Source: Malacoraja senta (lineage: Eukaryota). From it: a stretch of DNA of 64,000 nt. This document shows positions 1,353 to 59,861 of this stretch, in pieces. Numbering within the stretch: the stretch's first letter is position 1; every line of letters begins with the position of its first letter. The notes under the pieces are model-generated. The model was not told the DNA's origin. It ran no database searches and worked only from the letters and a program-made list of their open reading frames with translations. The stretch is from positions 2,666,001 to 2,730,000 of the forward strand of contig CM075989.1 of assembly GCA_038087875.1 (NCBI GenBank), in the 5' to 3' direction. Position numbers and translations under genes: made by a program.

Positions 1353-2277
1353 TCTAATCTCTCCCATGGCCCAGATGTCTTCTGGTCAGCCATGCAATGA
1401 CATCACAATATGCACGGCCCTTTCCTAGTGCAGGCTAGCATTTAGAGTTAGCGGGATTTTCACCAAGGGTTGATAATAGCAGGTAGCAAATTGAAAACAG
1501 AAAATGCCGGAATTGCTCCATAAGTCAGGCCTCATCTGTGGAAAGAGAACCGGAGTCATTGGTTCAGAACAAAGACCCTTGGTCAGAATATTTTCAGCAG
1601 ATCACAAGATGGTTGGGAAAGGTTAGAACGAAAGATAGACACAAAGTGCTGGAATAACTCAGCGGGGCAGGCGGCATCTCTGGATAGAAAGAATGGGACA
1701 TTTCAGGTCGAGACCCTTCTTCAGCTGAGTTACTCCGGCACTTTGTGTCTGTCATCGGAGTAAAGCAGCATCTGCATTTCAAGGGGAGGAGGTTTAAATG
1801 GGTATGGGCCAAACACAGGTAAAAATGGTCAGCATGGACAGGTGGGCCAAAGGGCCTGTTTCCGTGCTGTATGACTCTATGAGTGTTAGGTATGATAGCA
1901 AGCTCCAGTAAAATTGCAAAACAGGTGTACACGCATTGGATGGTGAACATTTGTAACGTTGATGCTGAATCAAAATTGTTTGTTTAAACTCTGAGTCGGA
2001 TATAACTTTGTTAACCCAGAATATTGAAGGATAAGGGGAACAGGAATGATCACGGAATTGTACGAACTGCCGGAGGAGATAGTTGAGGCAGGGACTATTG
2101 TAACGCGAAAGAAACATTTCGACAGGTACATATATAGGACACGTTACGAGGGATATGGGCAAATGCAGGCAGGTGGGACTAGTGTAGCTGGAGAAGGCAG
2201 GAGAATGGGGTTAACAAGAAGAGATAGATCAGCCATGATGGAATGGCAGAGTAGACTTGATGGGCCAAATAGCCTAA

Positions 2278-9055: not shown

Positions 9056-9311
9056 TCCATCACAATGACGTTTATGCACATCACCACATCCTCCTAATGG
9101 AGCAAGGGAGAAGGCAGCTTGACGGATTTCTTAAAGACAGCCACCCAGCTTGTGTGACAGCAGCAGTCGAAAGGCTGAATGTAAAATGATAAATCACGGA
9201 CACATCTGTATTGCCGGCTTCACAGTTACCGGCTAATATGCAGAGGTAATTTCCTCCAAGGTCAGATGCATAGATTTCAAATGTCTGGACTGGACACAAC
9301 ATATTATAATG

Positions 9312-9516
9312 AGTAGGGAGGAACTGCAGAAACTGGATGATAGACACAAAACGCTGGAGTAACTCAGCGGGACAGGCAGCATCTCTGGAGATAAGGAATG
9401 GGTGACGTTTCGGGTCGAGACCCTTCTTCTTCACATCTCACACCTATTCCGTACACCCATTCCTTCTCTCCAGAGATGCTGCCTGTCCCGCTGAGTTACT
9501 ACATCATTTTGTGTCT
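9312..9516. mobile_element. Fold-back Penelope-derived mini-element
   Basis: Inverted arms (gctggagtaactcagcgggacaggcagcatctctggag and its reverse complement); flanked by atattataa at 9301-9309 and 9517-9525. Confidence 0.7.
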
Positions 9517-9732
9517 ATATTATAACAAGGTGCAAGGAGAAGCATTTGAATACTAGTTCGATTTGGAGAGTCATACAGCACGGAAACAGGCCCTTCGGCC
9601 CAACTCGTCCATGCCAACCATCAAAGCTGGTCCTATTTGCCCACGTTTAACCCATATCCCTCTCATCCTTTCCTATCCATGTACCTGTCCAGGTGTCGTT
9701 TCATGTTGTTGTAGTACCTGCCTCGACCTGAG

Positions 9733-16078: not shown

Positions 16079-17171
16079 TTTAGTGCAACGTAAAGTCCAG
16101 TAAAGTCTAATCAGAAAATAGTCCAAGGGTCTCCAATGAGGTAGACAGTGGCTCAGGACTGCTCTCTAGTTTAGTTTAGGTTACTTCAGTGATACAGTGT
16201 AGAAGCAGATCCTTCACACTCTAGGGACAATGTTTTTACATTTTACACATATATATATACCTAGCCAATTAGCCTACAGACCTGTACGTCTTTGGAGTGT
16301 GGGAGGAAACCGAAGATTTTGGAGAAAACCACGGTGGGAACGTACAAACTCCGTGCAGACAAGCACCCGTGGTCAGGATCAGACCCGGGTCTGTGGCTGC
16401 AGCTCTACCATTGCGCCACCGTGCCGCACACATGTGATGGGCCTAAAGGTCTGTTACTGTGCTGTACAACTCTGACTAAAGATAGAACAGAGTGGATGTC
16501 AAGAGACTCAGAATTATGGCTGGAGACACATTTGGTAACGTTGTACTAAAGGGCAGCAAAACTAGGTGGACCACAAATTCTTCAGTTAAAATGGAAGACA
16601 GCCCAGGGTAAGGTCCGCACCTGTTCAATAACACTGAGACCAACTCGGGCTTTGATCTGAGCACCTCCACCTCCTGAGGCCATCACCCCTGATCTCCACG
16701 TCCTTCCAGCAAATCTCTTGAGACAACACACAAAGCGGATCCTTGCCCAACTCCAGATTAATCAGGAACCTTTTGTTTACCCATCTGTTGAATATCTCTG
16801 TGCCAATGATGTCCACATGAGCATATGTGCCTGTTTCCGTGCTGCATCACTCAGTCAGACCCAACTGCAAACTGTCTCCACAAACTCCATTTGTAAATGT
16901 GTGTGATATTCTGCCATACACCTTCACCTGGCCCAAGCTGACCGAGCACATGTTCACCGTTGTGTCTGTATGGGGGTCATTGTATTCATGTGTAGGAAGG
17001 AACTGCAGATGCTGGTTTACACAGTATAAAGTTGTGGGATATCTTCCTGACCCTGCCACAATGCAGAGTGATATTGTACAGAGTCTGGCGATCCACGAGC
17101 TGTAGTGAGATGGGTCCCCTATTTCTAATCTCTTCCCTTACCCGTTCTCCTTGTAGACCACCCCATATCGC

Positions 17172-17400
17172 TGATGAAAGATACAAAGAGCAGGAGTAAC
17201 TCAACGGGTCAGGCAGCATCTCCGGAGAGAAGGAATGAGTGACGTTTGGGGTCGAGACCCTTCGTCAGACTCAGACTTCTTGGTCTCGACCCGAAACATC
17301 ACCTATTCCTTCTCTCCAGAGATGCTGCCTGTCCCGCTGAGTTACAGCTTTTTGAGTCTATCTTTGGTTTAAACCAGCATCAGTAGTTCCTCCCTACACA
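17172..17400. mobile_element. Fold-back Penelope-derived mini-element
   Basis: Inverted arms meet at the hammerhead-like motif; flanked by ccatatcgc at 17163-17171 and 17401-17409. Confidence 0.75.
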
Positions 17401-18068
17401 CCATATCGCCAGCTCCACAGAGCAAGCTTTGTAAGAATGATCGCAAGCTAATCAGGCAATGGGCTGCAGGCTGAGTCCTGAGTAACCAGGAGGTTGTGTA
17501 TCCTGTCAGATGTCTCCCAGACCAGCTTGTTAAAAATATCACTAAAACCATCCAGCAAGCACCAGTACTTTGGCTGGTGGTGAGAAGGGTATATCCTTCA
17601 TACCCACTTGGAGATTCAACAACAATACCCTCAAGGCTGTAGGGAGGATCAGATAATCATCCATCTCCTTCTGGGATGTCCATCTGTCGACAAAGTCTAC
17701 AGCAGAATGCAGTGATCTTGGCCAAGCTTCATCTTGAGCAGTTGGATAGCACAGGACATTGATGAAGGGATAGAAAGCTACAGCATGGAAACAGGCCCGT
17801 CTATGCTAGCCCACATTTGCATCCACTCTCTGCACACTACAGGCAACTTTACTGAGGCCTTTGGGATGTGGGAGGAAAGTGGAGCAACCAGAGGAAAGCT
17901 ACACAGTCAGACAGGGAGAACATGCAAACTCCACACAGAGAACACCCAATGCAGGATCGAACCCGGGTATCTGGTGGTGTGAGGCAGCGGCTTTACCAGC
18001 TGTGCCACCCTGCTGCCTTCGTTCCATGGCCTTCTCCCAGCTACATACACTGACGGTTGCTGGAACAT

Positions 18069-18300
18069 GTGTATGAAGGAACTGCAGATGCTGGTTTATA
18101 CCAAAAATAAACACAAAAAACTGGAGTAACTCAGCAGGACAGGCAGCGTCTCTGGAGAGAAGGAATGAGTGACGTTTCGGGTTGAGATCCTTCTTCAGAC
18201 TAGTGGGAAGAAGGGTCTTGACCCGACACATCACCCATTCCTTCTCTCCAGGGATGCTGCCTGTCCCGCTGAGTTACTCCAGCTTTTGGTGCCTATCTTT
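18069..18300. mobile_element. Fold-back Penelope-derived mini-element
   Basis: Inverted arms; 14-bp TSD with 2 mismatches at 18055-18068 and 18301-18314. Confidence 0.8.
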
Positions 18301-18589
18301 GGCTGCTGAAACATTAGCATCTTGGTGCCAAGTCACACTTTGATCTGGCTGAAAGTAGTTTGTCTCTGAGCTGCCCTCGACTGAATTCAAAGGTTAAGGA
18401 CAATGTGCGGCGGGATGCCCTGCAAGTTGCAGCAGTGGCCACACTGGTCCATGGTGAAGAGACACAGTAGAACATCTCCCAACACGACATACAAGGCATT
18501 TGGAACGGGCGTAAGAACCCTGGGATACAGCTCTCATGGAATGAAGAATGTATATCATGCTAAAATATCACAAATCTTGCAAGCAAATG

Positions 18590-20323: not shown

Positions 20324-20816
20324 ACACATTCCTTCTCCCCAGAGATCCTGCCTGTCCCGCTGAGTTACTCCAGCATTCCGTGCCTATCTTAGGTGATCAC
20401 ACCCATCTATCTTGCAATGACAATACACAAGCTGATGGAATTAGAGGAAAAGGAACAACCATTCAGCTTCTCAAATCTAATCGAGAACACTTAGATCAAA
20501 GCCGGTCAGTGTAATATCACAATTCACTTGCCAGCTTTCATAACCTCCAGTACTCTTGATTATAAAATAAAGCTTTCAGTTATAGTTTTCAAATTTTCAA
20601 TTGAAGTAGAACGAGCATTTGTCGTAACTTCCATTTGATTTTCACTTGCTATACTGGAAACCTTTGGATGAAAGGGAATCCACAGGAAGCCAAGGGTTGA
20701 GCCAAATGCCTGGGGCTTGGAAAATTGGAGCCTTTCTGTCAATTCACGGAATTGAATGAGGTTCAATGAGGAGTGCAGGGCATTCAGAGGTAGCACACGG
20801 CACACCTAAACATGTG

Positions 20817-21089
20817 TTCAAGAAGGAACTGCAGATGCTGGAAAATCGAAGGTAGACAAAAGTGCTGGAGAAACTCAGCGGGTGCAGCAGCATCTATGGA
20901 GCGAAGGAAATAGGCAACGTTTCGGGCCGAAACCCTGAAGGAAATAGGCAACGTTTCGGGCCGAAACCCTGAAGGAAATAGGCAACGTTTCGGGACGAAA
21001 CCCGGAAGGGTTTCGGGCCGAAATGTTGCCTATTTCCTTCGCTCCATAGATGCTGCTGCACCCGCTGAGTTTCTCCAGCACTTTTGTCT
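20817..21089. mobile_element. Fold-back Penelope-derived mini-element with an internal triple 34-bp tandem
   Basis: 85-bp inverted arms at 20852-20936 and 21007-21091; 15-bp direct repeat acacctaaacatgtg at 20802-20816 and 21090-21104. Confidence 0.85.
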
Positions 21090-21121
21090 ACACCTAAACA
21101 TGTGACTAGCTGGTGAGGGTA

Positions 21122-23019: not shown

Positions 23020-23260
23020 GTATGGAAGGAACTGCAGATGCTGGTTTACACCGAAGAGACACAAAATGCTGGAGTAACTCAGCGGCACAGGCAGCATCTC
23101 TGGAGAGGAATAGGTGACGGTTTGGGTTGAGACCCTTCTTCAGTCTGAGAGTCTGACGAAGGGTCTCAGTCTGAAGAAAGGTCTTGACCCGAAATGTCAC
23201 CCATTCCTTCTCTCCAGAGATTCTGTTCTGTCCCGCTGAGTTACTCCAGCATTTTGTGCC
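23020..23260. mobile_element. Fold-back Penelope-derived mini-element
   Basis: Inverted arms with partly duplicated gtctga.gaa.ggtct hammerhead segments at the centre. Confidence 0.75.
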
Positions 23261-24009
23261 TAACATGGAAGGCTTTATCATTATGACCAACTCGGAAGAT
23301 GAAGGAGTAATGGGAGCACCACAAGTGAATGCCACCTTGGTGAAACAGCAGCAAAGGACCACACACTTGCAAGAACAATGTACAATGGGCAGGGCTGTGT
23401 AACCTCATGAGTAATGTTTCAGATCAAAGCTCTGCATCCAAATAGCCCTTCAGATCCCCTTTAACCCTTTTACTCCAGTTTCTGGGGGAGAGGTTCTTAC
23501 TACCTCTCCTGGGTCAATCGCCTAAACACAAAGGCAACACTGCAGGATTTCCCCAGGACTGTGCATCCCTGACTTCAGAGAGACACAAGAGATTGCAGAT
23601 GCTGGAATCTTGAACAAAACACAAAGTGGTGGTGGAACTCAACGGGTCAGACAGCATCTGCAGTGGGAATGAACAGAAGACGTTTTGGGTCGGGAACCTT
23701 CAAAAACTCTTCAATTCCGAACTTCATGTTGATTTAAAGGACAGTTACAGAACAGGACAAGCTTGATTAATATTTCATTGGTAAGCAATTAGTTTAAACT
23801 TCAGTAATGCAAGTTCATTGCAGGTAGTTGAATTAATGACATTCCATGCTGTCTCACTATTTTTCTAATACTGTGTGCACAGCAGCACTCAAACCGCACG
23901 GCAGAACATGGAGAATAATCGCTTCAAGCTCGGAGAAAGGACTCATCTTAAAGTCACACCAACGGCGTTAGATGGTGACTTTTAATGACCCTGAACAAAC
24001 ATGGTCTAA

Positions 24010-26958: not shown

Positions 26959-27257
26959 TAAAGTCCTAGCCTGCTCAACCTCTCACTATAGCTCAGGGCC
27001 TCAAGTCCTCGCGACATCCTCGTGAATCTTGTCTGCACCCTCTCCAGCTCCTTGAGCGCTGTTTATCTTGAGGAGTGTTGGGTGTTACAACAGCTGGTGA
27101 CAGTGGGAGGGTGGGTTCCAACCCAGTGACAAGTGGCCAGGCAGTGCAGACAACTCCTCATGACCGGGGCTGGGGAAGGGCCTGGAAACCGAGCACACCA
27201 GAGACTACAGGTACCACAATCCCATAGGTACGTGTAGGCCAAGGTGAACTACCTCCA

Positions 27258-28132
27258 GTCTGAAGAAGGGTCTGGACCCGAAACATCACCCATTCCTTCT
27301 CTCCAGAGATGGCGCCTGTCCCGCTGAGTTACACCAGCATTTTGTGGCTCTCCACCTCCATAACTTCTTGGTTCACTCATCCCTTCCCACCCGAACTACC
27401 CCCTCCCCAGGTACTTTCCCCAGCAACCGCAGGAGATACAACACCTGCCCTATGCCTCCTTGCTCGACTCCATCCAGGGACTCCAACAGCCATTTCACGT
27501 CAGGCAGAGGTTCATTTGCACCATCTACCGTATCTGTTCTCAGTGTGGACTCCGATATATCGGCGAGACCAAGCGCAGACTGGGCGATCGTTTGGCTGAA
27601 CAACTATGCTCAGTCCTCCTTGGCCGACGCGATCTCCTGGTTGCCAAACATTTGAACTCCCCTTCCCATTCCCACACTGACCTTCCTGTCCTGGGCCTCC
27701 TCCACTGTCAGAGTGAGGCCAAACGCAAATTGGAGGAACAGCACCTCATATTTTGCTTGGGCAGCTTACAACCCAGCAGTAAGAATATTGATTCCTCTAA
27801 GTTCAAGTAACCCTTGCATTCCCTCTCTCTCCATGTCTTGCCCACCCTAGTCATCCTGCCAGTTCCACTGTTCATACACCTTCGTTGTCTGCTCTTCCAC
27901 CACCAACAATGGACCATTGTGGGCTCCACCTTTCCAGGGTCGTCAGTGCGGGTTCTGATTTGTTCTGTACTTTTTCATACCTCTAATCTCCCTATCCCCT
28001 GACTCTCAGTCTAAAGATTGGCCTCGACCCGAAACGTCGCCTATTCCATTTCTCCAGGCTGACCCGCTGAGTTACTCCAGCGTTTTGTGTCTATCTTTGG
28101 TGTAAACCAGCATCTGCAGTTCCTTCCTACAC
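27258..28132 (+). mobile_element. Penelope-like element remnant: partial pseudo-LTR, GIY-YIG endonuclease region, pseudo-LTR
   Basis: ORF 27460-27810 has IYRICSQCGLRYIGETKRRLGDRLAE...RKLEEQHLIFCLGSLQP; hammerhead-like segments at ~27260 and ~28010. Confidence 0.85.
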
Positions 28133-28703: not shown

Positions 28704-29232
28704 GGGCGTCACGGTGGCGCAGCGGTAGAGTTGCTGCCCAAAGGGCCTGTCCCACTTTCACGACCTAATTCACAACCTTTTTTACTCGTGGACATTTTTC
28801 ATCATGTTGAAAAAACGCCCCGACCTACTTGATGCCACGAGTACCTACGACTAGCATCACGACCTACCTACGACCTCGAGACGACCACGCTGCGAGTATG
28901 AGTCAAGGGCAAACTCGGCAGAGGTTGTGAATCAGGTCGTGAAAGTGGGACAGGCCCTTTACAGCGTCAGAGACCCAGGTTCAATCCTGATTACGGGTGC
29001 TCTCTGTACGGAGTTTGCACGTCTTCCCCGTGACCTGCGTGGGTTTTCCCCGGGTGCTCCTGTCTCCCCCCACATTCCAAAGATGTACAGGTTTGTAGGT
29101 TAATTTGGCTTCGATAAAAATTGTAAATTGTCCCTAGTGTGTGTAAGGTAGTGTTAGTGTACGGGGATCGCTGGTCGGCACGGACTTGGTGGGCCGAAGG
29201 GCCTGTTTCCGCGCTGTATCTCTAAACTAAAC
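28704..29232 (+). mobile_element. tRNA-derived SINE interrupted by a Harbinger MITE
   Basis: Head to ...gttgctgcc, then MITE, then ttacagcgtcagagacc... through to the tail. Confidence 0.85.
28742..28958. mobile_element. PIF/Harbinger-type MITE (217 bp)
   Basis: TIR agggcctgtcccactttcacgacct; right flank TTA, left flank CAA (imperfect TSD). Confidence 0.85.
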
Positions 29233-30172: not shown

Positions 30173-30256
30173 TCCAGGGTAAGGCTTTGTATTATATCCA
30201 GGGTAAGGCTTTATATTGCATCCAGGGTAAGGCTTGGTATTGTATCCAGGGTAAGG
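30173..30256 (+). repeat. 24-bp tandem repeat (3.5 units) at the CR1 5' end
   Basis: tccagggtaaggctt..tatt..a at 30173, 30197 and 30221, partial at 30245. Confidence 0.9.
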
Positions 30257-30263
30257 GGGGAGA

Positions 30264-31199
30264 ATGAGGGCCAGGGCAGTTTACTGTTCTGGATGTCAGA
30301 TGTGGGAGGTCATGGAGTCTGATAGCCCTCCAGACGTCCACATCTGTGTCAGGTGCGTAGAGATGGGGTTCCTAAGGGACCGTGTTAGGAACCTGGAGCA
30401 GCAGCTCGATGACCTCTGTCTGATCAGGGAGAGTGAGGAGGTCATAGAAAAGAGTTATAGGGAGGTGGCCACTCCAAGACCACAGGAGGCAGACAAGTGG
30501 GTCACGGTTAGGAAGGGCAAGGGGCAGAGGCAGGGACTAGTGAGTACCCCGGTGGCTGTACACCTTGAAAATAAGTACTCCTGTTTGAGTACTGTTGGGG
30601 GGGACAGCCTTCCTGGGGGTAGCGACAGCGGCCGGGCCTCCGGCACAGAGACCGGCCCTGTTGCTCAGAAGGGTAGGGAAAAGAAGAGGAGGGCAATAGT
30701 AATAGGGGACTCTATGGTTAGGGGGTCGGATAGGCGATTCTGTGGACGCAGTCGGGAGACCCGGATGGTAGTTTGCCTCCCTGGTGCCAGGGTCAGGGAT
30801 GTGTCTGAACGCGTCCAAGATATCCTGAAATCGGAGAGAGAGGAACCTGAGGTTGTGGTACATATAGGTACCAATGACATAGGCAGAAAAAGAGAAGAGG
30901 TCCTGAAAGGAGAATTTAGGGAGTTGGGAGAAGAGTTAAGGAGAAGGACCGCAAAGGTAACAATCTCAGGATTACTACCTGTGCCACGCGACAGTGAGAG
31001 TAGGAATGAAATGAGGTGGAGGATAAATGCGTGGCTGAGGAACTGGTGCAGCGGGCAGGGATTCAAATTTCTGGATCATTGGGACCTCTTTTCGGGAAGG
31101 AGTGACCTGTACAGAAAGGACAGGTTGCACTTGAACCCGAGGGGAACCAATATCCTGGCGGGGAGATTTGCAAAGGCTACTGGGGAGACTTTAAACTAG
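30264..31199 (+). CDS. CR1 ORF1p: N-terminal zinc finger, coiled coil, SGNH/GDSL esterase
   Basis: Open 311-aa ORF; CSGC...CVRC; LRDRVRNLEQQLDDL; IVIGDSMVR, VHIGTNDIG, DRLHLNPRG. Confidence 0.9.
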   Translation: MRARAVYCSGCQMWEVMESDSPPDVHICVRCVEMGFLRDRVRNLEQQLDDLCLIRESEEVIEKSYREVATPRPQEADKWVTVRKGKGQRQGLVSTPVAVHLENKYSCLSTVGGDSLPGGSDSGRASGTETGPVAQKGREKKRRAIVIGDSMVRGSDRRFCGRSRETRMVVCLPGARVRDVSERVQDILKSEREEPEVVVHIGTNDIGRKREEVLKGEFRELGEELRRRTAKVTISGLLPVPRDSESRNEMRWRINAWLRNWCSGQGFKFLDHWDLFSGRSDLYRKDRLHLNPRGTNILAGRFAKATGETLN

Positions 31200-31339
31200 A
31201 ACGGTTGAGGGGAGGGACTCAAATAGAGAAAGATAGTAGAAACTGTGGGAGGCAGGAGGAAGAGAAGGGAAGCACTCGGACCCAAAATGTAGGGGAGAAA
31301 GAAGAAAAAGTTAATAAACAGAGAATAAGTGGTGGTGGG

Positions 31340-34008: not shown

Positions 34009-36923
34009 GCTTCCAGTGGAAGTGGTGGAGGCTGGTTCAATTTTATCCTTTAAAAATAGATTGGATGGGTATATGGACGGGAAAGGAATTGAGGGTTATG
34101 GTCTGAGTGCAGGTAGATGGGACTAGGGGGAAGTATTTATTTAAAAAATATATATAATTTTAAAAAAAATGTTCGGCACGGACTTGAAGGGCCGAGATGG
34201 CCTGTTTCCGTGCTGTAATGGTTATATGGGTATATGGTTGCCCATCGATCACCCATTCACACTCATTTTATGATATCCCACTTTCTCATCCATTCCCTAC
34301 ACACTGAGGGGAATTTACAGAGGTCAATTTACCAACAAACCTGCATGTTGTTGCGATATGGGCGGAAACCAGAGCACCCGGGGAAAATCCACATAGTCAC
34401 AGAGAGATCATGTACACTCCACACAGACAGCCACCGAGATCAGGACCAAACCCTTGTCTCCTAGTAATATGAGGCAGCAGCTCAACCAGTTGTGCCACTG
34501 TGATCAGTGATCACCCCGTACACTAGCACCATCCTACACACTAGGGACAATTTACAATGAACAGAAGCCAATTAACCTACAAACCTGCATGACATTGGAG
34601 CGTGGGAGGAAACCGGAGCACCCGGAATAAACCTAGACAGGTCACGGGGAGAACGCAGACATTCCGTACAGACAACACCCGGAGTCAGATCAAACCTGGG
34701 TCTCTGGCGCCGTGAGGCAGCAACTCTATCGTTGCACCACCGTGCTGCCCAATTACATGAATTATCTAATTAACAGTTATCACTAATTATGCAGCACCAG
34801 ATTAGCCTGGGAATGTTTCCATTTCCCTCACATGTAAACACGTTATCAATACTACAGTCAACAGTGGTGTCCTGCTTTGTTCTTGCATTGATTAGTTTAT
34901 TGCCATTTACAACAGGGTGTAACAATACTCTGGAAGACCGATTTCACAACATTGGATCTAAGGCTTGAGGACCAGTTGCCCAGCTCTGTAATTTGTCATC
35001 TCCTTCATGTTCTGACCTCCCTGCTGTCGGCCTTCAAGGTTTCAGCACCAGTATGAGATCCCATCTTCTGAATGGATACATTAAAGCCCTCCGGATTCAT
35101 CATTGACTAAAACACAAACTGCTGGAGTAACTCAGCATGTGGAGGTAGTGGACAGGCGATGATTCGGGTCAGGATCCTTCTTCGGGCTGATTGTAGTGTA
35201 GATTCGGGGGTGGGGGGGGTGGGGGTGGGTGAGAGTTGGGAAAGAGGTGAGAGTGGGACAAGGCCTGCCAAGTGTGAGGGAGGAACTGCAAATGCTGGTT
35301 TACACCAAAGACTCAGAAGAAGGGTCTCGACCCAAAACATCACCCATTCCTTCTCTCCAGAGATCATAAGAACATAAGTGATAGCAGCAGAATTAGGCCA
35401 TTCGGCCCATCAAGTCTGCTCCGCCATTCAATCATGGCTGATCTATCTCTCCCTCCGAGCCCCATTCTCCTGCCTTCTCCCCATAACCCCTGACACCTGT
35501 ACCTATCAAGCAATGCTGCCTGACCCACTGAGTCACTCCAGCATTTTGTGTCTATCTTCCTGCCAATTGATAGGAGGATACAGGTGAGTGAGGGGTTTAA
35601 CTGTCAGATGGGTGGAATAAAGTGACAAAGGCTAGCAATGAAATTTAAATAACAGGGTGTCAAATAAGGAAATAAGAGGAGTGGTGGGAGGGATAAATGT
35701 GTGAGAGGACAGGGAGGGGGAGGGAAGGAGGGGCGGGATGGTGGGAGAAATGTGCTCAATCATTACAAAACATTCAAATTCCTGGCATATTTAGTTACAA
35801 TTTGCAAAACACTTTCCACATTCTTTTGATAATTTCAGCTAATTATTTTGCATTCACACCTCCCCCAGACATTTGTTGTCTCACATCCCTTTTGTCTTTT
35901 AATCTCTTGCGTTGTCACCTTATCACTGACATGCCTTCACTTCTCTCCTTCCCTCTCTGCATTTCTAACCGGCTTCATCTTCAATAATACCCAGGCACAA
36001 TGGAAGGTCACCAACCCGAAACATTCCAGTGTTTTCTGTTTCTATTTCAGATTTTCTACACCTACTGATTTTCACATTTGCATTCGCTTTATGACATATT
36101 ACTAATAACGAATTTCTTTAGTCAGAGGCCGGTGAATCGGTGGAATTCATTGCCACAGACGGCTGTGGAGGCCATGTCAATGGGTATTTTTAAGGCAGAG
36201 ATAGATAGATTCTTGATTAGTACGGGTGTCAGAGGTTATGGGGAGTAGCAGAAGAATGGGGTTAGGAGGGAGAGATAGATCAGCCATGATTGAACGGTGG
36301 AGTAGATTTGATGGGCCGAATGGCCTAATTCTGTTCCTATCACTTATGAACTTATGAACATATATTCACTGAATCCGAGTCTCGCAGGTTAATGGAGACA
36401 GAATATAACTTTGAGTTCTGCGGATATTGGATTTGTTGTCAAATGCTAACTTTTCACTAGCTCAATATATATAGCAAAGAGAGATGTTTCAACAAACACT
36501 TGAAGGTCAAAGAACATAATCTGTGTGTTGGTCTGGGTGAACAAAATCACCTATAAAGCACAAAAGCAACATTTACAGGTATAATTTATTACACCCCATG
36601 GGATTCACACTAAAACTTGCTTCACTGGAGATGGCAGTTCCGTCCAAGTTAACTTTTTTGAAAAAATTATGTGAGAATCCAATTGACCTTACAGCTCAAA
36701 TAAAATGAGAAATAACTCAATGGAAATAAAACTAAAATGTTCAGCCTTCCAAATTTGTACGCATATCCTTTTATAGACCCTTGTAAAAGGAGAAGCAGTT
36801 TAATGAAACTTGTATTTTTAAATGATTGCCCATATATTCCTTTGAAAAAAAATCATCTGCCCAATCAAATAATTCAACTCCCAGTGTATTCCTGTAGTGT
36901 TTGGCATCCCTTCAATACAATTC

Positions 36924-37672: not shown

Positions 37673-37949
37673 AAGGTATGAATTTATGGCAGTTAATTTG
37701 TGTTAACTAAATCCCTGTATTCCTGGGATCCCAGCATTTCCCTCCACAGATGCAGCCTGACCTGCTGAGTTACTCCAGCACTTTGTTTTTGTTCATGATT
37801 CTGGTATCTGCTATTTCTTGTGTTTTCAAATCCCTCCATTAGAGCTGAAGACTCTACCACTCCTGGCACAGACTACTCCTTGATATGCCGTGTTCTCATC
37901 ACTTTTCATGTAGTGTTTGATTGTCAATTCACACAAGACAGCTAGCAGT

Positions 37950-38480
37950 AGAGGAAGGAAATGCAGATGCTGCTTTACACCGAAGAGAGACACAAAAAGC
38001 TGGAGTAACTCAGTGGGTTAAAGGCAGCATCTTTGGAGAAAAGGAATAGGTGACGTTTCGGGTCGAAACCCTTCTTCAGACTGAACATCAGGGGAGAGGG
38101 AAAGTAGAGGTATAAAGAGGTTCAGTACAAATCGGAACCAGCACCGATGACCCTGGAAAGGTGGAGCCCACAATGGTCCATTGTTGGCTGTGGAATAGGT
38201 GTAACGGAGGGATACATGGATGTGAACAGTGGAACTGGCAGGACCATGAGGGTGGGGGAGGGGCAGCAAGAGGGAATGCAGAAGTTACTTGAAATAAGAG
38301 AAATCAAAATTTATACCACTGGGGTGTAAGCTACCCAAGCAAAATATAAGGTGCTGTTGCTCCAATTTGTGTTGGGTCTCACTCTGACAGTGGAGGAGGC
38401 CCTGGACAGAAAGGTCAATGTGGGAATGGGAGGGGGAGTAAAAATGCTTGACAATAGGGAGATCGAGTAGGCTTAGGCAG
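37950..38480 (-). mobile_element. Penelope-like element 3' end
   Basis: KHFYSPSHSHIDLSVQGLLHCQSETQHKLEQQHLIFCLGSLHPSG, followed by the pseudo-LTR. Confidence 0.85.
38052..38079 (-). ncRNA. Minimal hammerhead ribozyme-like motif (intact core)
   Basis: Reverse strand reads CUGAAGA-A-GGGU-UUCG-ACCC-GAAAC-GUC. Confidence 0.7.
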
Positions 38481-39919
38481 ACGGAGTACACTTTGCTGTT
38501 GAGGGAAAATCTGGGCTTGTATTCCATCAGCAATTAAACGTGAGCACGGAATATTGAATCACAGCACGTGTGGAAAATGCCAGGTAACGTATAGAAGGTT
38601 TCAAACTCCTCACATGAAGTAACATTGCAACAATCTCCCTCTGAACAAAATTAACTCTTGCACATGGATGGGTTTTCCATGATGAAACCATGGAGGCATT
38701 GGAAACGGTTTTACTCACTTTCAACTATGAACTATAACAGCCTATTGCACTTTATCTGTTTATTTATGTGTATATAACACACTGATCTGTTCTGTATTTA
38801 TGCTTACAATATCTGTGGTGCTGCAGCAATGCAAGAATGTCATTGTCCTATCTGGGACTCATGACAATAAACTCTCTTGACCTGACTTGACTTGACATCC
38901 ACTGGTTATCTGACAAGGCTGCATTATGGTGGGCCTGATGCCTCCACTTATTCCAGTGAAGTTTACTGTCACGTGTACCGAGGTACAGTAGTGTGCCAAC
39001 CAGCCAGTGAAGAGAGAATACATGATTACAATCCAGCCATCCACAATGCACAGATACATTGATTGATTGATATTGTAGAGTGACATGTACTTGGTACAGT
39101 CAAATGCTTTGTTTCGTAAACAACACACAAGTATGCAAAGAGTCTCCACATATAGGGTGCCAACGAAGTTACAAAAGTATTCAATATAGTCCCTCTCCCT
39201 TCTCCCCCCCCCCACTTTGTTATCCGCAGCCCCCCCTTTGTCCTCTAGGTGGCCCCCCACGTCGGATGCTTATTCCTGTAGAGTTTGGCATCCCTTCAAT
39301 ACAATTCTACACACAAGCACACGCACCCAATATCTCAAGATATAACCAACTTCATATGAAAGATATTGAAGATGACTGAATGACCTAATTCTTCTCCTTG
39401 GACATGAACTTATGACTGTTTATTTGTGGTTTTCAGTGTTCTGGGGAGCCCAGCATTTCCCTCCACAGATGCTGCCTGACCTGCTGAGTTACTCCAGCAC
39501 TTTGTTTTTGCTCAAGATGTCAGCATCTGTGGTGTCTTGTGTCTGATAATGGGAATAACGTTTAGTGCAAGGTAAAGCCCATAAAGTCCAATCAAAGATA
39601 GACAGAGGGTCTCCCCTGAGATAGACAGTCGTTCAGGAATGCCCTCTGGTTGCAGTAGGGTGGTGCATTGATCACCTGCCTGAGGTACAGATCTGTACGA
39701 GGTCCACGTCTGAGTTACGGATGAAAAAAGGCCTAAGTTTTGTTTCTACCTGCCTGACCAATCCTGAATGGATCAAAAAAACTGTTTTGTTCAATTCTCC
39801 TTGCAATATTCATAAAATCAATTTGAATAACATTAACAGATTTTGTTATACTTTCACAGGGACAATAATCACATTCATAAACTAATCAAAATATGAATAC
39901 ATCCGTGCCCACATCCACC

Positions 39920-41125: not shown

Positions 41126-42934
41126 TTAGTCAAGATACCAATTTTTCAGCAATTCCTCCCATTATTTGTACATTTCCAAAATTGGTAGTTTTTCGTTGGT
41201 GCTGTGTTGATGGTGAGGTCAGATGTTGAGATCTACTTGGCTCCAGTGCCTGCATGGACAAGTTGTGTGTGTGTGTGTGTTTGTGTTTAGGATCGAGTCC
41301 CCTTGCCAGTGAAGTGAGGATTTTAATGCAAATACTGTTGGCTTTGCTCCCTTTCAGTTGTTGCAATCGATGTGTTGTTAAAATGGTATCTTTAATCCCA
41401 TTAACCCCGAGGCACTGGAATCATAAATGATTTGACCCAAGTGCACCTATTGTACACTTTTATCTTCTTCATCGCAAAAGAGCAGAACGGAATTGGCACG
41501 GCCATTTACTGTGTTTCAATGTTGCAAGAATCAATTAATATTTCATAGACCCCCTCTCTTCCTGGAAGGGATTTTGCTGAATTTTGCAGGAGACATGTTC
41601 CATTGTTACATAAGGACTTCAACTGTGCTTTGAAGCACTGATTTCATATGTGCGCATAGGTTTAACTGGAGACTAATGCAATTGCATGTAACAGCACAAC
41701 CTCCATGTCTCCTGGAAGTCCACATGGACAACATCTGTGGATTTTCCCTCATTGACCTTTATGGTTACTTCCTCAATAAAAGGAATCCGATTCATAAGAC
41801 CCAGTCTCCTATCGTTGACTATCTCTAATCAGTCCCTATCTATCTAAATGCATTAGTACCTTATCACTCAGAATCCTCTCCATTACTGTGCCTACCATAG
41901 GTGTTAGGCTCACTGATCCATAGTTCCCAGGCTTTTCCTTGCAGTCCTTCTTCAATAGAGGCACAATATTAGCCACCCTCCAGTCTTCCAGCATCTCACC
42001 TCACCACGTTCACTCCAACCAGGGATCACCCATACACTAGTTCTATCCTACACTAGGGACAATTTACAAAAGGCAATTCACCCACAAACCTGCACTTCTA
42101 TGGAATGTGGGAGGAAACCGGAGAACCCAGAGGAAACCCATGTGGTCACAGGGAGAACGTACACAGCTCAACCAGGGCTTCTGCAATTTCTTCTCCCGCT
42201 TCCCACAGTGTCCTCAGATATATCTGGAGATATTTGATATATCAGCAGATTAGTTTACCTACATATGCCTTAAGACGTTCAGTGCCTCCTCGACACCCCT
42301 CCAGACATCTCCATTAACTGTCCCAAGTGTACCTAGTCTTCATGTCCTTCTCTATGGTAAAACGGCAGCGAAATACTCATTGAATATCTTGCCCATTTCC
42401 TGTGGCTCCACACAGAAATGGCTACTTTGGTTTCTAAAGGGTCCTATTCTCTCTCTAGTCACCCTGTTTCCCTTGTGCAGGAAGGAACTGCAGATGCTGC
42501 TTTAAACCAAAGATAGACACAAAAAGCTGGAGTAATTCAGTGGGACAGGCAGCATCTCTGGAAAGAAGGAATGGGTGATGTTTCGGGTCGAGACCCTTCT
42601 CCAGTCTGATGATTGGTCCTCGATTCACCTAGTCTGGGCAAGAGACTCTGTGCAAGAGACTTGATCCCAGATGCTTATACTTATCCCATGCCACCTTCTT
42701 TTTCCTGACTAGAACCTCAATTTCTCTTGTCATCTAATCTTCCTTATGCCCACCTGCCTTGCCCTTCACTTTAACAAGAACATGAATGCCCTGAACTCAT
42801 ATTTAGTTTAGTTTAAGAAGGAACTGCAGATGCTGGAAAATCGAAGGTAGACAAATCCGAAACGTTGCTTATTTCCTTCGCTCCATAGATGCTGCTGCAC
42901 CCACTGAGTTTCTCCAGCATTTTTGTCTACCTTT

Positions 42935-45664: not shown

Positions 45665-46744
45665 AACTTCTGAATAAGGGCTTGTTTCCTTGTTGTATCA
45701 ATAAACTAAACTAAACTAAACATGTTGCATTTAGGTAACACCTGGGACACAGACCAATGTCAAACGGCACTTAGCCAAACACAATAAGACAAGATTAAAT
45801 ACCTACTACATACACAAACCCTAATTACCAATCTCAATGGTTAATAATAACCCCAATAAACCAGCTCCTGTGAGGAATATAATCACTCCGATCATTAAAT
45901 AATATTGCTGACTACCAGTGGCCTCATTGTTAAGCCGTCATTCTCTCAGTGCTGATCACTGCAAACAACACAGAAGCTTTGTAGCCACAGCTTTGTGGTA
46001 ATTTGTGGAGGCAGTTTTACAATCAGATGAAGCTGTACTCCGAGGCATGAAAGCATCTCCAGGATCTGAACAATGCCTGTCTATTAGGACAAAGGAAATA
46101 TGAGATTGTGCAGATTAAAAAGTAGAATTAATGATCGCAGTGATGTTCAGTAGGAGTTGGAGTCAACCTTCTTTTTCAAGAAGTGTGGTCAATGTGAAAT
46201 AAAATATAATAAAAAAAGGAACTGCAGATGCTGCTTTATACCAAAGATCGGCACAGAATGCTGGAGTAACTCAGCGGGTCAGACAGCATCTCTGGAGAAA
46301 ATGTTTTTATTCGGCACTCTGCTTCAGATGGCACCGTCTGACAAAGGATCCCAAGACGAAATGTCACATATCCATTTTCTTCAGTGATGCTGCCTGACCC
46401 GCTGAGTTACTCCAGCTTTTTGTGTCTTATCTGCTGTCCCTGTGAAGTTTGTATCAAGTCTTGGACCACTTGTGGAGCGTCAAAAAGCAATTTCAGCCGA
46501 CCATACTGATTAGTTGAAAGATACAGCAGGGAAACAGATCCTTGAGCCCGCCGAGTCCATTCTGACCATCGATCACCCGTTTGCACTAGTTCTATGCTAT
46601 TCCATTTTTCATGCACAAATGTTGTATTAGTCCCTGCCTCAACTACCTCCTCCAGCAGCTCATTCCATACACCCACCATCAGTATTAGTGGTTGTGCAAG
46701 AATGAATGGCTGGGTTACTTTGGTTCTGAACATAGAACATACGG

Positions 46745-47112
46745 TACGCAACATGAGCCGCCTTTCCGAGATGCCCAGCGTGCCGTTCCGTGACACGGAG
46801 AGGCACGTGTTATACAGGCTGCGCTTGCACACTCTCCACTTCCGCGCCCTTGTCTTCCGTCCAGACACACCCTGGTAACACCCATGTTACCACCTGATGA
46901 GGGAAGCAGTCCCCAGTGGAGGTCTCTCTGTAAAGGAGTCCTCCCCCTTTACATTGGGGACCTGGGGTGGAGAGTGTTGCACAAAGGTGTGGCCTGCAAC
47001 AGGTACTTGAGCTGGTTCACGGACTCGTCCGCCGCATGTCACTTCTGCGGCGAGGAAGAGACCATGTTCCACGTCTACATGGAGTGTTCGAGGTTGCAGC
47101 CCCTGTTTGAGC
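46745..47112 (+). mobile_element. Tx1 LINE ORF2 fragment (C-terminal zinc-binding region)
   Basis: PQWRSLCKGVLPLYIGDLGWRVLH...CHFCGEEETMFHVYMECSRLQPLF. Confidence 0.85.
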
Positions 47113-55948: not shown

Positions 55949-57311
55949 CTAAACTGAAGTATAGGACTAGTGAATATTACCAACTCCTCAGCATCCCTGT
56001 CTCACGCCTCCTAACCCTGACGGCTTTGATAAGAATTACTTTGAAAGATTTATGGGGCGGTTTCACCCTGTGTAAATATAACTCTTGCCGCTTGTTTCAA
56101 TTCTCACATGATAAAATATTCATCGTGGGGGTGCTCACCCCAGCCGTCACCACTCTCCTCACCTGCCTTTAATTTGTTCTCTGACAAGTTTGCTGCCTCG
56201 CAGCCAGGAGCTGCTAACATTGATGTTCAGCAAATGACTCCTTCACTGTTAGAAGGATAAAGTAGCATCACCACCAGTCGCCAACACACAATGTTAATGG
56301 CACTTGTCCCTGCATCCCGGTACCAATATTGTTGTCTACAGATGTCGGGGTAGCAAGATGGCGCAGCGGTAGAGTTGCTGCCTTACAGCGCCAAAGACCC
56401 GGGTTCGATCCTGACTCCGGCCATTGTCTGTACGGAGTTTTCTCCGGGTGTTCCGGTTTCCTCCCACTCTCCAAACACGTACAGGTTAATTGGCCTGGTA
56501 TAAGAGGTAAATGTCAGAGGTAAATGTAAACATTGTCAGGTGTCAGAGGTTTTGGGGAGAAGGCAGGGGAACGGGTTTAGGAGGGAGAGATAGATCAGCC
56601 ATGATTGAATGGCGGAGTAGACTTGATGGGCCGAATGGCCTAATTCTACTCCTATCACATATGACCTTATGACCTTTTCCCCAGTGTAGGATAGTGTCAT
56701 CGCATCTCCCTGTATACCACTGAAGGAGATGCAATGAAATGTTGTTGTACAGTTGTTGTGCAATGACAATAAACGTATTTGATTTGATTTAATGTGAGTG
56801 GGGAATGCTGGTTGGCGCTGACTCGCTGGCCCGCTGTATCTCTAAATGGAAATGATTTCAAACAAGCACAGTTGTCACTAATCAGATAATATTTCACCTT
56901 GGAGCTGACCATAATTTGATTCTCACGTGCCAGTTAACTTCCCTTTAAACCGCCCAGAGAGGCATTTAATTGCAACAACTTGCTGAAGCTAATGGCTTAT
57001 ATGCTGCTCAGAAGTGACAAGGCTTCACTATAGTCAGAGGAGGTTTGTGATGCATAGGATCGATTATAATAAACTCATTGGGCACCGAGGGTTTAGGCAC
57101 GAGAGATATCAAGGCATTACAGATCTGATCCAGGCAACTGCAGGTCCAATGCCCCGAGTGTGGTAGCAGTTAACAAGATTAGGAATCATCATAAGGACAA
57201 GGTTACTGGACAAGAATTGAATTACAGATGGAATAACTGGTTAAGCAGAGGGCCCTGCTGTGTCAGACCACCAACAAGCTTACCACAAGGGGACACGGGT
57301 AATGGAGTTGT

Positions 57312-57525
57312 GTAGGCAGGAACTGCAGATGCTGGTTTCAACCGAAGATAACCACAAATTGCTGGAGTAACTCAGCGGGACAGGCAGCATCTCTGGAGAG
57401 AAGGAATGGGTGACGTTTCGGGTTGAGACCCTTCTTCAGTCTGGACCCGAAACGTCAACCATTCCTTCTCTCCAGAGATGTTGCCTGTCCCGCTGAGATA
57501 CTCCAGCATTTTGTATCTATCTACC
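57312..57525. mobile_element. Fold-back Penelope-derived mini-element
   Basis: Inverted arms; perfect 14-bp TSD ggtaatggagttgt at 57298-57311 and 57526-57539. Confidence 0.85.
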
Positions 57526-58599
57526 GGTAATGGAGTTGTTACGGGCAGGTCAAAATCAGACGTACGCTGGGAAAATGACAAGGACATCAGCGTCGACAGT
57601 CCACAGTCCTCTGTCCCAGCTCAATGTCCTGTTCAACTGAACCATCCGACCAACAACTAGAGAGCAGTCCGCAACTACTACCCACCTCGTTGGAGACCCT
57701 TGGACTATCTTTCATCGAACGTTACTGGACTTTATCTTGCATTAGACATTATTGCACAGAGTCTATATGTTCCTCCTGTGATTACGTGCGTTTTCTCCAG
57801 GTGCTCCGGTTTCCTCCCACATGCGAAAGACATGCGGGTTTGTAGGTTAATTGGTTTCTGTAACTTGTCCCTGGAGTGCAGGATAGAACCATGTTTACGG
57901 GTTGATTGATGGACAGTGTGAACTCGTTGGGCCATGCTGTATGTCTAAACTAAACTAAACTAAACTAATCTGAAGTAGATGAGCTACCAGAGGACCTAGT
58001 TGAGGCAGGTACTATAACTGCATTTAAAAAGACATTTGGACAGGTACATGGATAGGAAAGGTTTAGAGGGATATGGGCCAAATGCAGACAGGTGGAACTA
58101 ATGTAGATTGTACATCATCGTTGACATGGGCAAGATGGGCTGAAGGGCCTTTTTCCATGCTGTATGTCCATGATATTGGTTACAAATACAAGGTGTGGTG
58201 TCCTATCCTTCATTGGGAGCACCAGATGAGGACAACACTTAAATGGAACAATCTGTGGTAATCTGTTAGAAACTGAGTCTGGATCGGAACCCCCCAAAAT
58301 CACAGGGGACAGAAAAATCACAAAATCTTACAGCACAGCAGGACAGCGAGTAGCCAGCATGCCTGAACCTGGCTCTGAAGATGGCTCGACCCGAAACGTC
58401 ACCCATTCCTTCTCTCTGTCCCGCTGAGTTACTCCAGCATTTGTGTCTACCTTGCCTGAACCTGGTGTCAGGCAGACTGGAGGTATTTTGGGGGGGCAGC
58501 TATGGACTGCCGGTGGTTTTCCACTCTGCATTCACATTCAACTCACAGCCTGATACATTTACAGACATTTTGTGATAATAAACAAAGCCAAGTATCTGT

Positions 58600-59130
58600 A
58601 GAAACAAAGAACCGCAGATGCTGGTTTATACTAAAGATAGACACAAAGTGTTGGAGTAACTCAGCAGGTCAGGCAGCATCTCTGGAGAAAAGGTATAGGT
58701 GACGTTTTGGGTCAGGACCCTTTTTCAGACTGAAAGTAGGGGGTGGGGGTGGGGAAGGGGGAGGTGAAGAGCTGGAGGCAAGAAAAGGCCAGGAACAGTC
58801 AGGGCCAGCCACCAATGACCACAGGTAGGGCAGTGCCTGGTTGGGCCATTGTTGGCTTGGGAAGCAGTGACCTCAAGAGATACAATGTAGAGAACCGTGG
58901 AACTGGTAAAAGGGTGAGGGTGGAGGAAGGGAGGAAGGAGGGAGGAGGGAGGAGGGAGGAGGGAGGAGGGAGGAGGGAGGAGGGAGGGTAGGGGAGGGGA
59001 TTGTGAGATGAAGTTACTTAAAATTAGAGAATTTGATGATCATACCTCTGGGTTGCAAGCTTACCACTTATTTGGCTTCTCTCTGGCAATGGAGGAGGCC
59101 CAGGACAGAAAGGTCAGTTAGGGAATGGGA
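58600..59130 (-). mobile_element. Degenerate Penelope-like 3' end containing a (GGAGGGA)n tract
   Basis: Similar to 37950-38480. Confidence 0.7.
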
Positions 59131-59861
59131 AGAGAAATATCTCCCCAGCAGTATTAACAACCATTTGGAATTACCCAACCTTCTCCAGAATTTAAATATT
59201 AAACTTCCAAGTATTAATTGCCTGGAGATGTTTTAATGAGATATGAAATCCTGTTGAACTAAATAGCGTTTATCCCTTGTCGAGATGAGGGTGGTCACAA
59301 AAGACTGTTTGAGAAACATTGTCTAATTCCTAGACAGACACAAAATGCTGGAATAACTCAGCGGGACAGGCAGCATCTCTGGAGAGAAGGAATGGGTGAC
59401 GTTTCGGGCCGAGACCCTTGTCTAGAATTACTCCTGTTCCAATTGGCCGGGCAAGTTTGCAACAGGTGGGTTTATGAGAATGTGAGAATACTTCCAAGAA
59501 TATCTCCACCGGGAGATGGAAAGACCAAGGTGTACCACGGGGATCCGTGTCCGTGTCTCTGCCTCTCATTTACACATCAGCAAAACCCATCTGCGAGCTG
59601 CATACACCTGCAGACAAGGTGACAACAGGGGTGTGAGGCTTGGAAGACGAGGCAGGTGATTCACTGAGTGTTCGACACAACTCATTGACAAATAGGCACT
59701 GGCACACACAACGCACCGTACAACGGGGGCAATGAGACACGCGGCACAAGAAAAACTACAAGATGAAGTGAGGGCAGTCGGTCCAGCACCTGGTACATTA
59801 CGTTTAATTATGTGCCGGCGGCACGGTGGCGCAGCGGTAGAGTTGCTGCCTTACAGCACTC

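What the first reader, a model, noticed from the sequence alone, without database searches (positions are those of the whole stretch)
20802..21104. TSD-flanked fold-back mini-elements centred on a Penelope hammerhead motif
Seen: at least six ~200-280-bp units (9312-9516, 17172-17400, 18069-18300, 20817-21089, 23020-23260, 57312-57525; weaker ones at 1630-1780, 42815-42931, 46215-46430) consist of two inverted copies of the Penelope pseudo-LTR end. Five have 9-15-bp direct flanking repeats, so each hairpin inserted as one unit. In the six main units the symmetry centre lies within ~30 nt of the CTGAAGA...GAAACGTC motif, yet the junction sequences differ. Known: Penelope-like elements carry minimal hammerheads and often have inverted truncated ends. 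Inference: the ribozyme region may define the end of the RNA template and promote fold-back or template switching, repeatedly creating non-coding hairpin elements that would form 80-120-bp dsRNA if transcribed.
Basis: partly seen in the sequence, partly recalled or inferred. Interest (0 to 1): 0.7.

Follow-up and report, generated by a model that had tools for sequence, protein, structure and literature searches.

The report
Penelope stubs joined head to head
These 120-290-base hairpin inserts in shark- or skate-type DNA are two short end pieces of a Penelope-like jumping gene joined head to head, a known pattern in miniature; their joins crowd just in front of the hammerhead motif rather than at its cutting site, likely because the element's RNA starts there.

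Summary
Six of 10 have 8-15-bp target duplications, against 2.3% of random spans reaching an effective 9 bp. They are the 3' end of a Neptune-type Penelope-like element (PLE), joined head to head with the ~35-nt 'tail' on one arm. That is the published PLE insertion pattern without the ORF.

The ribozyme-cut part of the inference fails. Inner ends fall at -10..+13 (C of CUGANGA = +1) in 15 of 20 arms, but also in 14 of 25 non-inverted copies. Only 1 of 45 lies at the cleavage site. Contigs of four public runs show the main ends at -2/-3, on an initiator-like TCAGT, so the RNA start is the likely stop (inferred). Four of 10 units cannot come from one snapped-back cDNA unless later trimmed; two cDNAs are likelier. 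Junctions differ, so this is not a MITE. Transcription is untested. This scan found the same pattern on other genomes (at least seven earlier notes).

The parts
20802..20816 (.). Left target-site duplication, 15 bp
   Evidence: Exact repeat at 21090-21104
20817..20936 (-). Tail-bearing arm of the focal unit: PLE end, subfamily B, element positions about +128 to +8; stops inside the hammerhead core
20937..21004 (-). Junction: two further copies of the last 34 nt of the left arm (+41 to +8/+9) plus one G; likely repeated template jumps
   Evidence: Sequence; BLAST piece 20971-21003
21005..21089 (+). No-tail arm of the focal unit, +6 to about +91; 98% complementary to the left arm over 85 nt
21090..21104 (.). 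Right target-site duplication, 15 bp
9301..9525 (.). Fold-back: tail arm +3..+128, no-tail arm +28..+93, 24-nt filler with slipped copies, 9-bp TSD; the only arm that starts at the cleavage site
17163..17409 (.). Fold-back: no-tail arm to -3, tail arm from +10, 9-bp TSD
18058..18314 (.). Fold-back: tail arm to -3, no-tail arm from -3 or +3, 11-bp TSD with 1 mismatch
23020..23262 (.). Fold-back: arms to -10 and -7 with an internal duplication; TSD not established
35264..35566 (.).
57298..57539 (.). Fold-back: tail arm to -4/+1 with an intact core, no-tail arm from +11, 14-bp TSD
1621..1780 (.). Asymmetric fold-back joined at a CTGAG microhomology (-6/+64); no TSD found
42815..42931 (.). Asymmetric fold-back, subfamily B (+86/+19), inside a TTTAG microsatellite
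46216..46432 (.). Decayed fold-back (-1/-2) with a 7-nt filler; no TSD found
27256..28132 (+). Parent-type partial tandem: short no-tail copy (-4..+93), then a broken ORF 3' end (linker and GIY-YIG endonuclease), 3' UTR, hammerhead region and tail
37948..38490 (-). Long 5'-truncated PLE copy (end of endonuclease, 3' UTR, intact minimal hammerhead core at 38052-38079, tail); used as the reference for public contigs
58606..59419 (-). Second partial tandem: short no-tail copy (+7..+94) followed by a decayed long copy with tail

Best explanation
Each unit is a minimal insertion of a Neptune-type Penelope-like retrotransposon, two short end pieces set head to head (six of ten between target duplications), likely made as two separate cDNAs primed from the two ends of a staggered cut. 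One cDNA would start at the tail end (about +130) and the other about 35 nt inside (+91 to +98), matching the two internal RT start sites shown in vitro for the anole PLE. Both would run toward the RNA's 5' end, which most likely lies at the A of TCAGT, 3 nt before the hammerhead core. On reaching or nearing that end the RT would slip, jump or add filler, and the two cDNA ends would be joined, often through the local CTGA/TCAG palindromes. One such cDNA alone would give the solo stubs; a jump from -3 back to +95 would give partial tandems. The ribozyme marks the place only because it sits at the start of the transcript; its cut is not the end point. Shown here: anatomy, TSDs, tail asymmetry, the end hotspot, junction variety, parent clade. 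Inferred: two cDNAs, staggered-cut priming, transcription start as the cause of the hotspot.
For: Parent: a broken ORF upstream of the motif matches GIY-YIG clusters (Atlas score 0.95, Pfam on 42% of members). It also matches four batoid/shark proteins at E 7e-28 to 3e-36; three of these carry the RT YIDD motif, and cysteine-linker remnants precede the endonuclease. Craig 2021 gives that linker for Neptune/Nematis. Tail on one arm only in 9 of 10 units clearly, the tenth (1621) less sharply; none has two full tails or none. In 4 of 10 units each arm holds sequence the other lacks (13-93 nt), two of them TSD-bounded. TSDs in 6 of 10 fold-backs against 3 of 20 non-inverted copies (Fisher p = 0.03), as expected if both outer ends are priming ends. 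End hotspot: 14 of 25 non-inverted copies end in -10..+13, none in -250..-11, 5 further up (equal-hazard p = 1e-10). In one search, heterogeneous long loose ends lie at -2 (1082, 1281, 1363, 168 contigs) and -3 (1044, 1270, 1463, 169) in all four runs, three coded organisms. A -3 to +95 tandem jump is seen in 6, 5 and 6 contigs of three runs. The first loose letter at -3 is C on the antisense strand in 4 of 4 runs, as a copied cap G would give (recalled signature; a transition would give A). Literature: two internal RT starts, both strands extended, a predicted dimer, ribozyme cleavage not needed and no RNA reads ending at the cut (PMC11167929); internal TATA-less promoter in the pLTR (PMC2377424); Inr-like TCACT in a rotifer pLTR (PMC3846280).
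Against: No RNA data fix the start site. In D. virilis Penelope the start lies 46 nt before a 75-nt intron that ends at helix I, so about 120 nt upstream of the ribozyme, not beside it; the CAG at -4..-2 here could instead be a splice acceptor. The cap-G hint rests on majority letters only. In the window just two of the ends near -3 show the extra G (17172, middle of 23020), and slippage explains both equally. The in vitro paper saw no difference in start site between strands, so the one-tail coordination is not explained by it. Later deletions at palindrome centres could have made the four asymmetric units. Arms mostly share subfamily marks (both B units; 6 of 7 agree at a second variable site), which also fits one-cDNA models. 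The -5/-6 loose-end peaks partly reflect other subfamilies, and the depth profile depends on the one reference copy. One search showed 24 of 2681 loose-end rows and 15 of 505 joints, and undercounted two runs. No tail-bearing solo has a TSD, which I cannot explain.
Confidence: 0.68

Rival explanations
1. Same insertion products, but the hotspot is not the RNA start: RT stalls or is captured at the interleaved CTGA/TCAG palindromes and the pyrimidine tract just 5' of the core, or -1 is a splice acceptor.
For: Junctions at 1621, 18069, 23020 and 57312 use these 4-5-mers. An inverted joint -5/+65 on CTGAG recurs in 4, 9, 13 and 2 contigs. The D. virilis intron ends at helix I.
Against: Solo copies with TSDs (10165, 58374) end at -1 directly against target DNA, with no exon 1. 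Loose ends at -2/-3 have 0.31-0.34 agreement, so no shared upstream exon; no GT-AG skip is among the 15 joints shown. The hotspot is present without any partner arm.
Confidence: 0.14
2. Self-priming: one cDNA, or an antisense RNA template (Arkhipova 2013), folds back at a palindrome and the endonuclease resolves the far end, leaving the tail on one side.
For: Proposed in PMC3846280 from palindromes at inverted junctions; the tail is ascribed to EN resolution in Craig 2021. Four of 10 units are compatible and 2 marginal. Arms share subfamily marks.
Against: Four of 10 units have mutually exclusive sequence in the two arms. No-tail arms end where no-tail solos end (+91 to +99). Two RT start sites were since shown in vitro.
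Confidence: 0.09
3. A dedicated non-autonomous hairpin element (MITE-like or retrozyme-like) that spreads as a unit from a few master copies.
For: Similar unit size, TSDs, and one inverted joint that recurs across four runs. Non-autonomous PLE derivatives exist.
Against: All 10 junctions differ, two subfamilies each make their own, TSD length varies 8-15 bp, and solo and tandem forms share the same ends. The recurring joint is in at most 13 contigs per run, against more than 1000 loose ends at -2 and again at -3 in each DNA run. Symmetric junctions may be under-seen in contigs.
Confidence: 0.05
4. One reading: hammerhead self-cleavage creates the template end and promotes fold-back.
For: One arm (9454) starts at +28. 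The core is conserved in long copies, with 2-bp helix I covariation GU/AC to GU/GC.
Against: 1 of 45 ends at +24..+33. Most copies keep the whole core, which a 3' cleavage product would lack. The cut site is absent from the loose-end rows shown. Cleavage was dispensable in vitro and no reads ended there in the anole.
Confidence: 0.04

Closest known systems
Canonical EN+ Penelope-like insertions with an inverted 5'-truncated copy and a one-sided 30-40-bp tail (Craig et al. 2021, bioRxiv 10.1101/2021.04.23.441226 / PMC8557442, passages; Arkhipova et al. 2013, PMC3846280, abstract and passages)
   Same: Head-to-head inverted pLTRs, tail on one end, 8-10-bp TSDs there against 8-15 here, palindromes at the inverted junction, partial tandems.
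   Different: Here the ORF and second pLTR are missing, so the whole insertion is 120-290 bp. The inner ends pile up at one spot, which I did not find quantified in the passages read.
PAc (Poseidon, Anolis carolinensis) in vitro system (Frangieh et al. 2024, PMC11167929, parts 1-2 of 4 read; figures and supplements not seen)
   Same: Hammerhead at the start of the ORF region, two internal RT start sites bounding the tail, both DNA strands cut and extended, cleavage not needed.
   Different: Poseidon clade there, Neptune-type linker here. The core carries the ATG in PAc but reads AAG here. The tail ends about 127 nt after that codon against 111-118. The paper's text does not address where cDNAs stop or how inversions join.
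Minimal hammerheads of metazoan PLEs (Cervera and De la Pena 2014, PMC4209133, parts 1-2 of 4 read)
   Same: Type I core, extra nucleotide before helix II, no loop III with palindromic ACGU; pairs of motifs 100-700 bp apart on opposite strands were already noted in Schistosoma.
   Different: Helix II is 4-5 bp and helix I only 2 bp here (7-8 and 4-5 in the Schistosoma families). The core is broken in 18 of 20 arms and would be tied up in the hairpin.
Non-LTR retrozymes (Li, Clavereau, Pollet 2026, bioRxiv 10.64898/2026.07.22.740005, part 1 of 5 and passages)
   Same: Non-coding, PLE-pLTR-derived, hammerhead-bearing, reported in one chondrichthyan.
   Different: Defined as head-to-tail tandems with a complete ribozyme in at least two consecutive units; these are head-to-head with mostly broken cores.
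L1 twin priming (recalled, no call)
   Same: Two primers from both target ends, inversion joined by microhomology, TSD kept.
   Different: L1 inversions copy two different parts of the RNA; here both arms copy the same part, giving a hairpin.

Membership tests
EN+ Penelope-like element, Neptune-type (parent) | C-terminal GIY-YIG endonuclease upstream of the pLTR | tested here: met
   Broken ORF 27364-27810: Atlas GIY-YIG clusters 0.94-0.95; no Pfam hit on its own; same frame before three other long copies
EN+ Penelope-like element, Neptune-type (parent) | PLE RT domain in the same ORF | tested here: inconclusive
   Not present in the window; present (YIDD motif) in 3 of 4 aligned relatives at 47-54% identity over the shared part. 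No RT tree was built.
EN+ Penelope-like element, Neptune-type (parent) | CX2-5CxxC linker between RT and EN (Neptune or Nematis) | tested here: met
   Full in 3 of 4 relatives and partial in the fourth; decayed and frameshifted in the window (ORF 27248-27655). Neptune versus Nematis was not separated.
EN+ Penelope-like element insertion | pLTR in tandem or inverted arrangement with a one-sided 30-40-bp tail | tested here: met
   9 of 10 fold-backs clear and 1 less sharp; 2 partial tandems
EN+ Penelope-like element insertion | Variable short target-site duplication | tested here: met
   6 of 10 fold-backs and 3 of 20 non-inverted copies; null 2.3% at effective 9 bp or more. No empty site seen.
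Minimal type I hammerhead (min-HHR) | CUGANGA, helix II, GAAA, minimal helix III, UH | tested here: met
   5 intact cores in the window against 0 in 30 resamples; only 2 of them in fold-back arms, none in the focal unit
Minimal type I hammerhead (min-HHR) | Self-cleavage as a dimer | not testable with these tools
   Monomer folds of five stretches were no more stable than shuffles; no Rfam hammerhead match at E up to 1
Non-LTR retrozyme | Head-to-tail tandem with a complete HHR in at least two consecutive units | tested here: not met
   Units are head-to-head; the 34-nt tandem in the focal unit lacks the core
MITE (class II non-autonomous) | Fixed ends, shared interior, fixed TSD length | tested here: not met
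   10 different junctions, asymmetric ends, TSD 8-15 bp
Hairpin-RNA / endo-siRNA source | Transcription and small RNAs or A-to-I editing | not testable with these tools
   Focal unit predicted at -193.9 kcal/mol, z = -21; no raw RNA reads were available

The most novel reading that the evidence does not exclude
The sharp end at -3 is the capped start of the Penelope mRNA. A dimeric RT-endonuclease fires both 5'-proximal start sites on it, one per target end, so batoid genomes hold tens of thousands of fossil records of the step that builds the inverted and tandem pLTRs of all endonuclease-bearing Penelope-like elements. The hammerhead sequence would then double as the element's initiator region, and the still open question of how these structures form could be read from genome data alone.
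Probability: 0.35. Interest if true: 0.55.

Novelty: new member of a known kind. Interest (0 to 1): 0.27.

Why it matters
As objects these are ordinary dead PLE insertions of a described pattern. Their value is as a test set. Craig 2021 calls the features that make PLE tandem and inverted structures 'still undefined', and the published explanation (self-priming, possibly on antisense RNA) is untested. Here the inner ends sit on a near single-base hotspot shared by solo, tandem and inverted forms in three organisms, and asymmetric units argue for two cDNAs. One genome-wide tabulation plus a 5'-RACE would decide between the models. Young hairpins such as the focal one might also yield dsRNA if they lie in transcribed DNA, which is untested.

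Tried and rejected
No whole genome is held, so TSDs, empty sites and junctions could not be counted genome-wide from an assembly. Rfam at E up to 1 gave 17 matches, all below gathering and none a hammerhead family; the miRNA-type hits reflect hairpins. Metagenome scan with a 35-nt motif: 0 hits. With a 20-nt motif: 15 loci, none matching the element beyond 33 nt, taken as chance. Viral contigs: 0. Run search: no RNA holder listed; the guessed RNA run laid was flagged probably DNA, so nothing is said on expression. Paralogous empty sites inside the window: none for 10 units. Arm-versus-arm identity did not exceed identity to other copies in 7 of 8 units; only the young focal unit did, so no sign of arm homogenisation. 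Splicing at -1: skips of 63-92 nt have unknown letters between and no GT-AG ends, rejected as evidence. The open frame through the pLTR (about 43 codons) is chance-level. A DPE-like match at the recalled spacing is 4 of 5 letters, about 17% by my hand estimate, and was not used. Literature searches for this structure in cartilaginous fishes found nothing specific: 1 unrelated review; 0; 1, whale shark genome, listing only; listings only. The library lacks most subscription papers, and Repbase/Dfam could not be searched, so absence from print is not shown. The search for a cap-G reference gave 0; that signature, the Inr consensus, L1 twin priming, R2 template jumping and the HE1/HER1 names are recalled. 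Supplements of PMC11167929 (Figs S1-S2, insertion ends) and PMC4209133 were not opened and may bear on the hotspot claim.

Full report
Setting. The window is repeat-rich eukaryotic DNA of about 46% GC with a CR1-type LINE carrying an esterase ORF1. The best protein relatives of a broken ORF are from Mobula, Leucoraja, Stegostoma and Hypanus, so it is shark- or skate-type DNA. No whole genome is held. Positions below count along the element's sense strand with +1 = the C of CUGANGA; the predicted hammerhead cut follows +28.

The observation. A tenth lies at 35272-35558, and a decayed candidate near 40490-40575 was left out of counts. Direct repeats flank 6 of 10: 9, 9, 11 (1 mismatch), 15, 14 and 8 bp. 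Random 220-bp spans reach an effective 9 bp in 2.3% and 8 bp in 5.7% of 300 trials. Unit 23020 has no convincing duplication, 42815 sits in a microsatellite, 1630 and 46215 have none. The focal unit is: 15-bp TSD, a tail arm (about +128 to +8), two extra copies of that arm's last 34 nt, a no-tail arm (+6 to +91, 98% complementary over 85 nt), 15-bp TSD. As RNA it is predicted to fold at -193.9 kcal/mol (z = -21) with a 72-bp unbroken helix. Both arms stop inside the ribozyme core, so the motif of the title is not in this unit. Across the window the minimal core is intact five times (0 in 30 resamples), twice in the 20 fold-back arms.

The parent. At 27256-28132 a short copy (-4..+93) is followed by a broken ORF end, a 3' UTR, the hammerhead region and the tail. 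The ORF piece has no Pfam hit. It does match GIY-YIG clusters in the Atlas (0.95) and four chondrichthyan proteins, three of which carry an RT YIDD motif; three show a full cysteine linker before the endonuclease and the fourth a partial one. Craig 2021 assigns that linker to Neptune and Nematis (passages). The same frame precedes three other long copies. The repeat is therefore the pseudo-LTR end of a Neptune-type PLE; I built no tree.

Outer ends. 3' ends fall in two groups, +91 to +99 and +123 to +130. In 9 of 10 fold-backs one arm is clearly of each kind; 1621 fits less sharply. This is the published pattern: an inverted 5'-truncated copy and a 30-40-bp tail on one end (Craig 2021, passages); head-to-head inverted pLTRs with 8-10-bp TSDs (Arkhipova 2013, passages). 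Frangieh 2024 (parts 1-2 of 4) showed in vitro that the tail is the stretch between two internal RT start sites near the beginning of the ORF, that both target strands are cut and extended, and that ribozyme cleavage is not needed. Cervera 2014 (parts 1-2 of 4) already noted paired minimal hammerheads 100-700 bp apart on opposite strands.

Inner ends. But 14 of 25 non-inverted copies end there too (Fisher p = 0.22), none ends between -11 and -250, and five run further (equal-hazard p = 1e-10). Only 1 of 45 ends lies within +24..+33. These ends were read from local alignments and are uncertain by a few bases; four of the 25 are old or very short pieces. To look beyond the window I laid contigs of four public runs (three coded organisms, four studies) on the single copy 37945-38495 at 80% likeness (113,380, 122,379, 123,282 and 11,123 contigs laid). 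Long, heterogeneous loose ends are listed at -2 (1082, 1281, 1363, 168) and -3 (1044, 1270, 1463, 169) in every run, with further rows at -4 to -6 that partly reflect other subfamilies. The cut site is not among the 24 rows shown; 2657 rows are hidden and two runs were undercounted, so this is not a full table. Summed depth over the core is about 9-14 times the best upstream bin in X1 and X8 and 5-6 times in X2, a rough figure that depends on the reference. Among the 15 joints shown are inverted joins from -2..-5 to about +62..+65 (up to 13 contigs per run, the CTGAG microhomology also used at 1621) and a tandem jump from -3 to +95 (6, 5, 6 contigs).

Why there. The hotspot is 5' of the core, so a 3' cleavage product cannot be the template. 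The letters at -5..+2 fit the initiator consensus with its A at -3 (recalled). PLE promoters are internal to the pLTR (Schostak 2008, abstract, passages and one part of the text), and a rotifer pLTR has an Inr-like TCACT. The majority first loose letter at -3 is C on the antisense strand in 4 of 4 runs, as a copied cap would give (recalled), whereas a transition would give A. Against this: in D. virilis the start lies about 120 nt upstream of the ribozyme with an intron ending at helix I; only two window ends show the extra G; and the region is rich in CTGA/TCAG palindromes that could capture cDNA ends. A spliced template is disfavoured because TSD-bounded solos end against target DNA and the loose ends share no sequence. 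I put the transcription-start reading at about even to somewhat better odds.

One cDNA or two. A snapped-back cDNA can only recopy itself, so its second arm must nest within the first. In 4 of 10 units the no-tail arm reaches 13-93 nt further 5' than the tail arm while lacking the tail; two of the four are TSD-bounded. Four units are compatible with snap-back and two are marginal. Later deletion could mimic the asymmetry. TSDs are commoner in fold-backs (6 of 10) than in non-inverted copies (3 of 20; p = 0.03), as expected if both outer ends are priming ends. Arms usually share subfamily marks, so both cDNAs probably come from one RNA or from sister RNAs. All ten junctions differ and show filler, slippage or microhomology, which excludes an ordinary MITE.

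Verdict. These are real, well-preserved minimal PLE insertions of a described kind. The scan's notes list at least seven similar findings on other genomes with the same overall verdict. I saw them after forming my reading and they are not independent support. What I did not see in those summaries or in the passages read is the near single-base hotspot shared by solo, tandem and inverted forms, or the nesting test; these make an open mechanistic question testable. Transcription, editing and empty sites remain untested.

Noticed in passing
window 30255-34008 (+): CR1-type LINE with an SGNH/GDSL esterase ORF1 (314 aa) and a long RT frame (720 aa), broken by one stop-frameshift near 31850.
   Followed up: partly
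window 10165, 58374, 20029 versus 29952, 42475, 53779 and other tail-bearing solos: Among non-inverted copies, convincing TSDs occur only with no-tail copies (3); no tail-bearing solo has one. Unexplained; may bear on how the tail end is primed.
   Followed up: no
window 28740-28960 and 48989-49310: Two related small elements with 39-48-bp terminal inverted repeats inserted in SINEs; the second appears to have a TTA duplication, Harbinger-MITE-like (label recalled).
   Followed up: no
window 62863-63222 (-): Frame resembling the C-terminus of a Harbinger/ISL2EU-type transposase by eye; no Pfam hit.
   Followed up: partly
window 46794-47189 (+): LINE remnant with a zf-RVT match below the curated cut-off.
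   Followed up: no
window 60188-60298: GC-rich hairpin with 45-bp arms at 96%; Rfam MIR7526 hit of 56 bits, far below gathering.
   Followed up: no
window 16990-17022: Tail-only PLE piece of 33 bp, 150 bp from the 17172 unit but outside its TSD.
   Followed up: no
P0003 C-terminus and P0005 residues 1281-1308: A zebra-shark predicted protein reads through into the hammerhead region, where the core spells an ATG as in the anole element (AAG here). An Amblyraja DCC isoform model contains 28 residues 93% identical to the PLE endonuclease end, an exonised or mispredicted piece.
   Followed up: no
window 40490-40575: Decayed eleventh fold-back candidate of an older subfamily, cut by a SINE; not counted.
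   Followed up: partly
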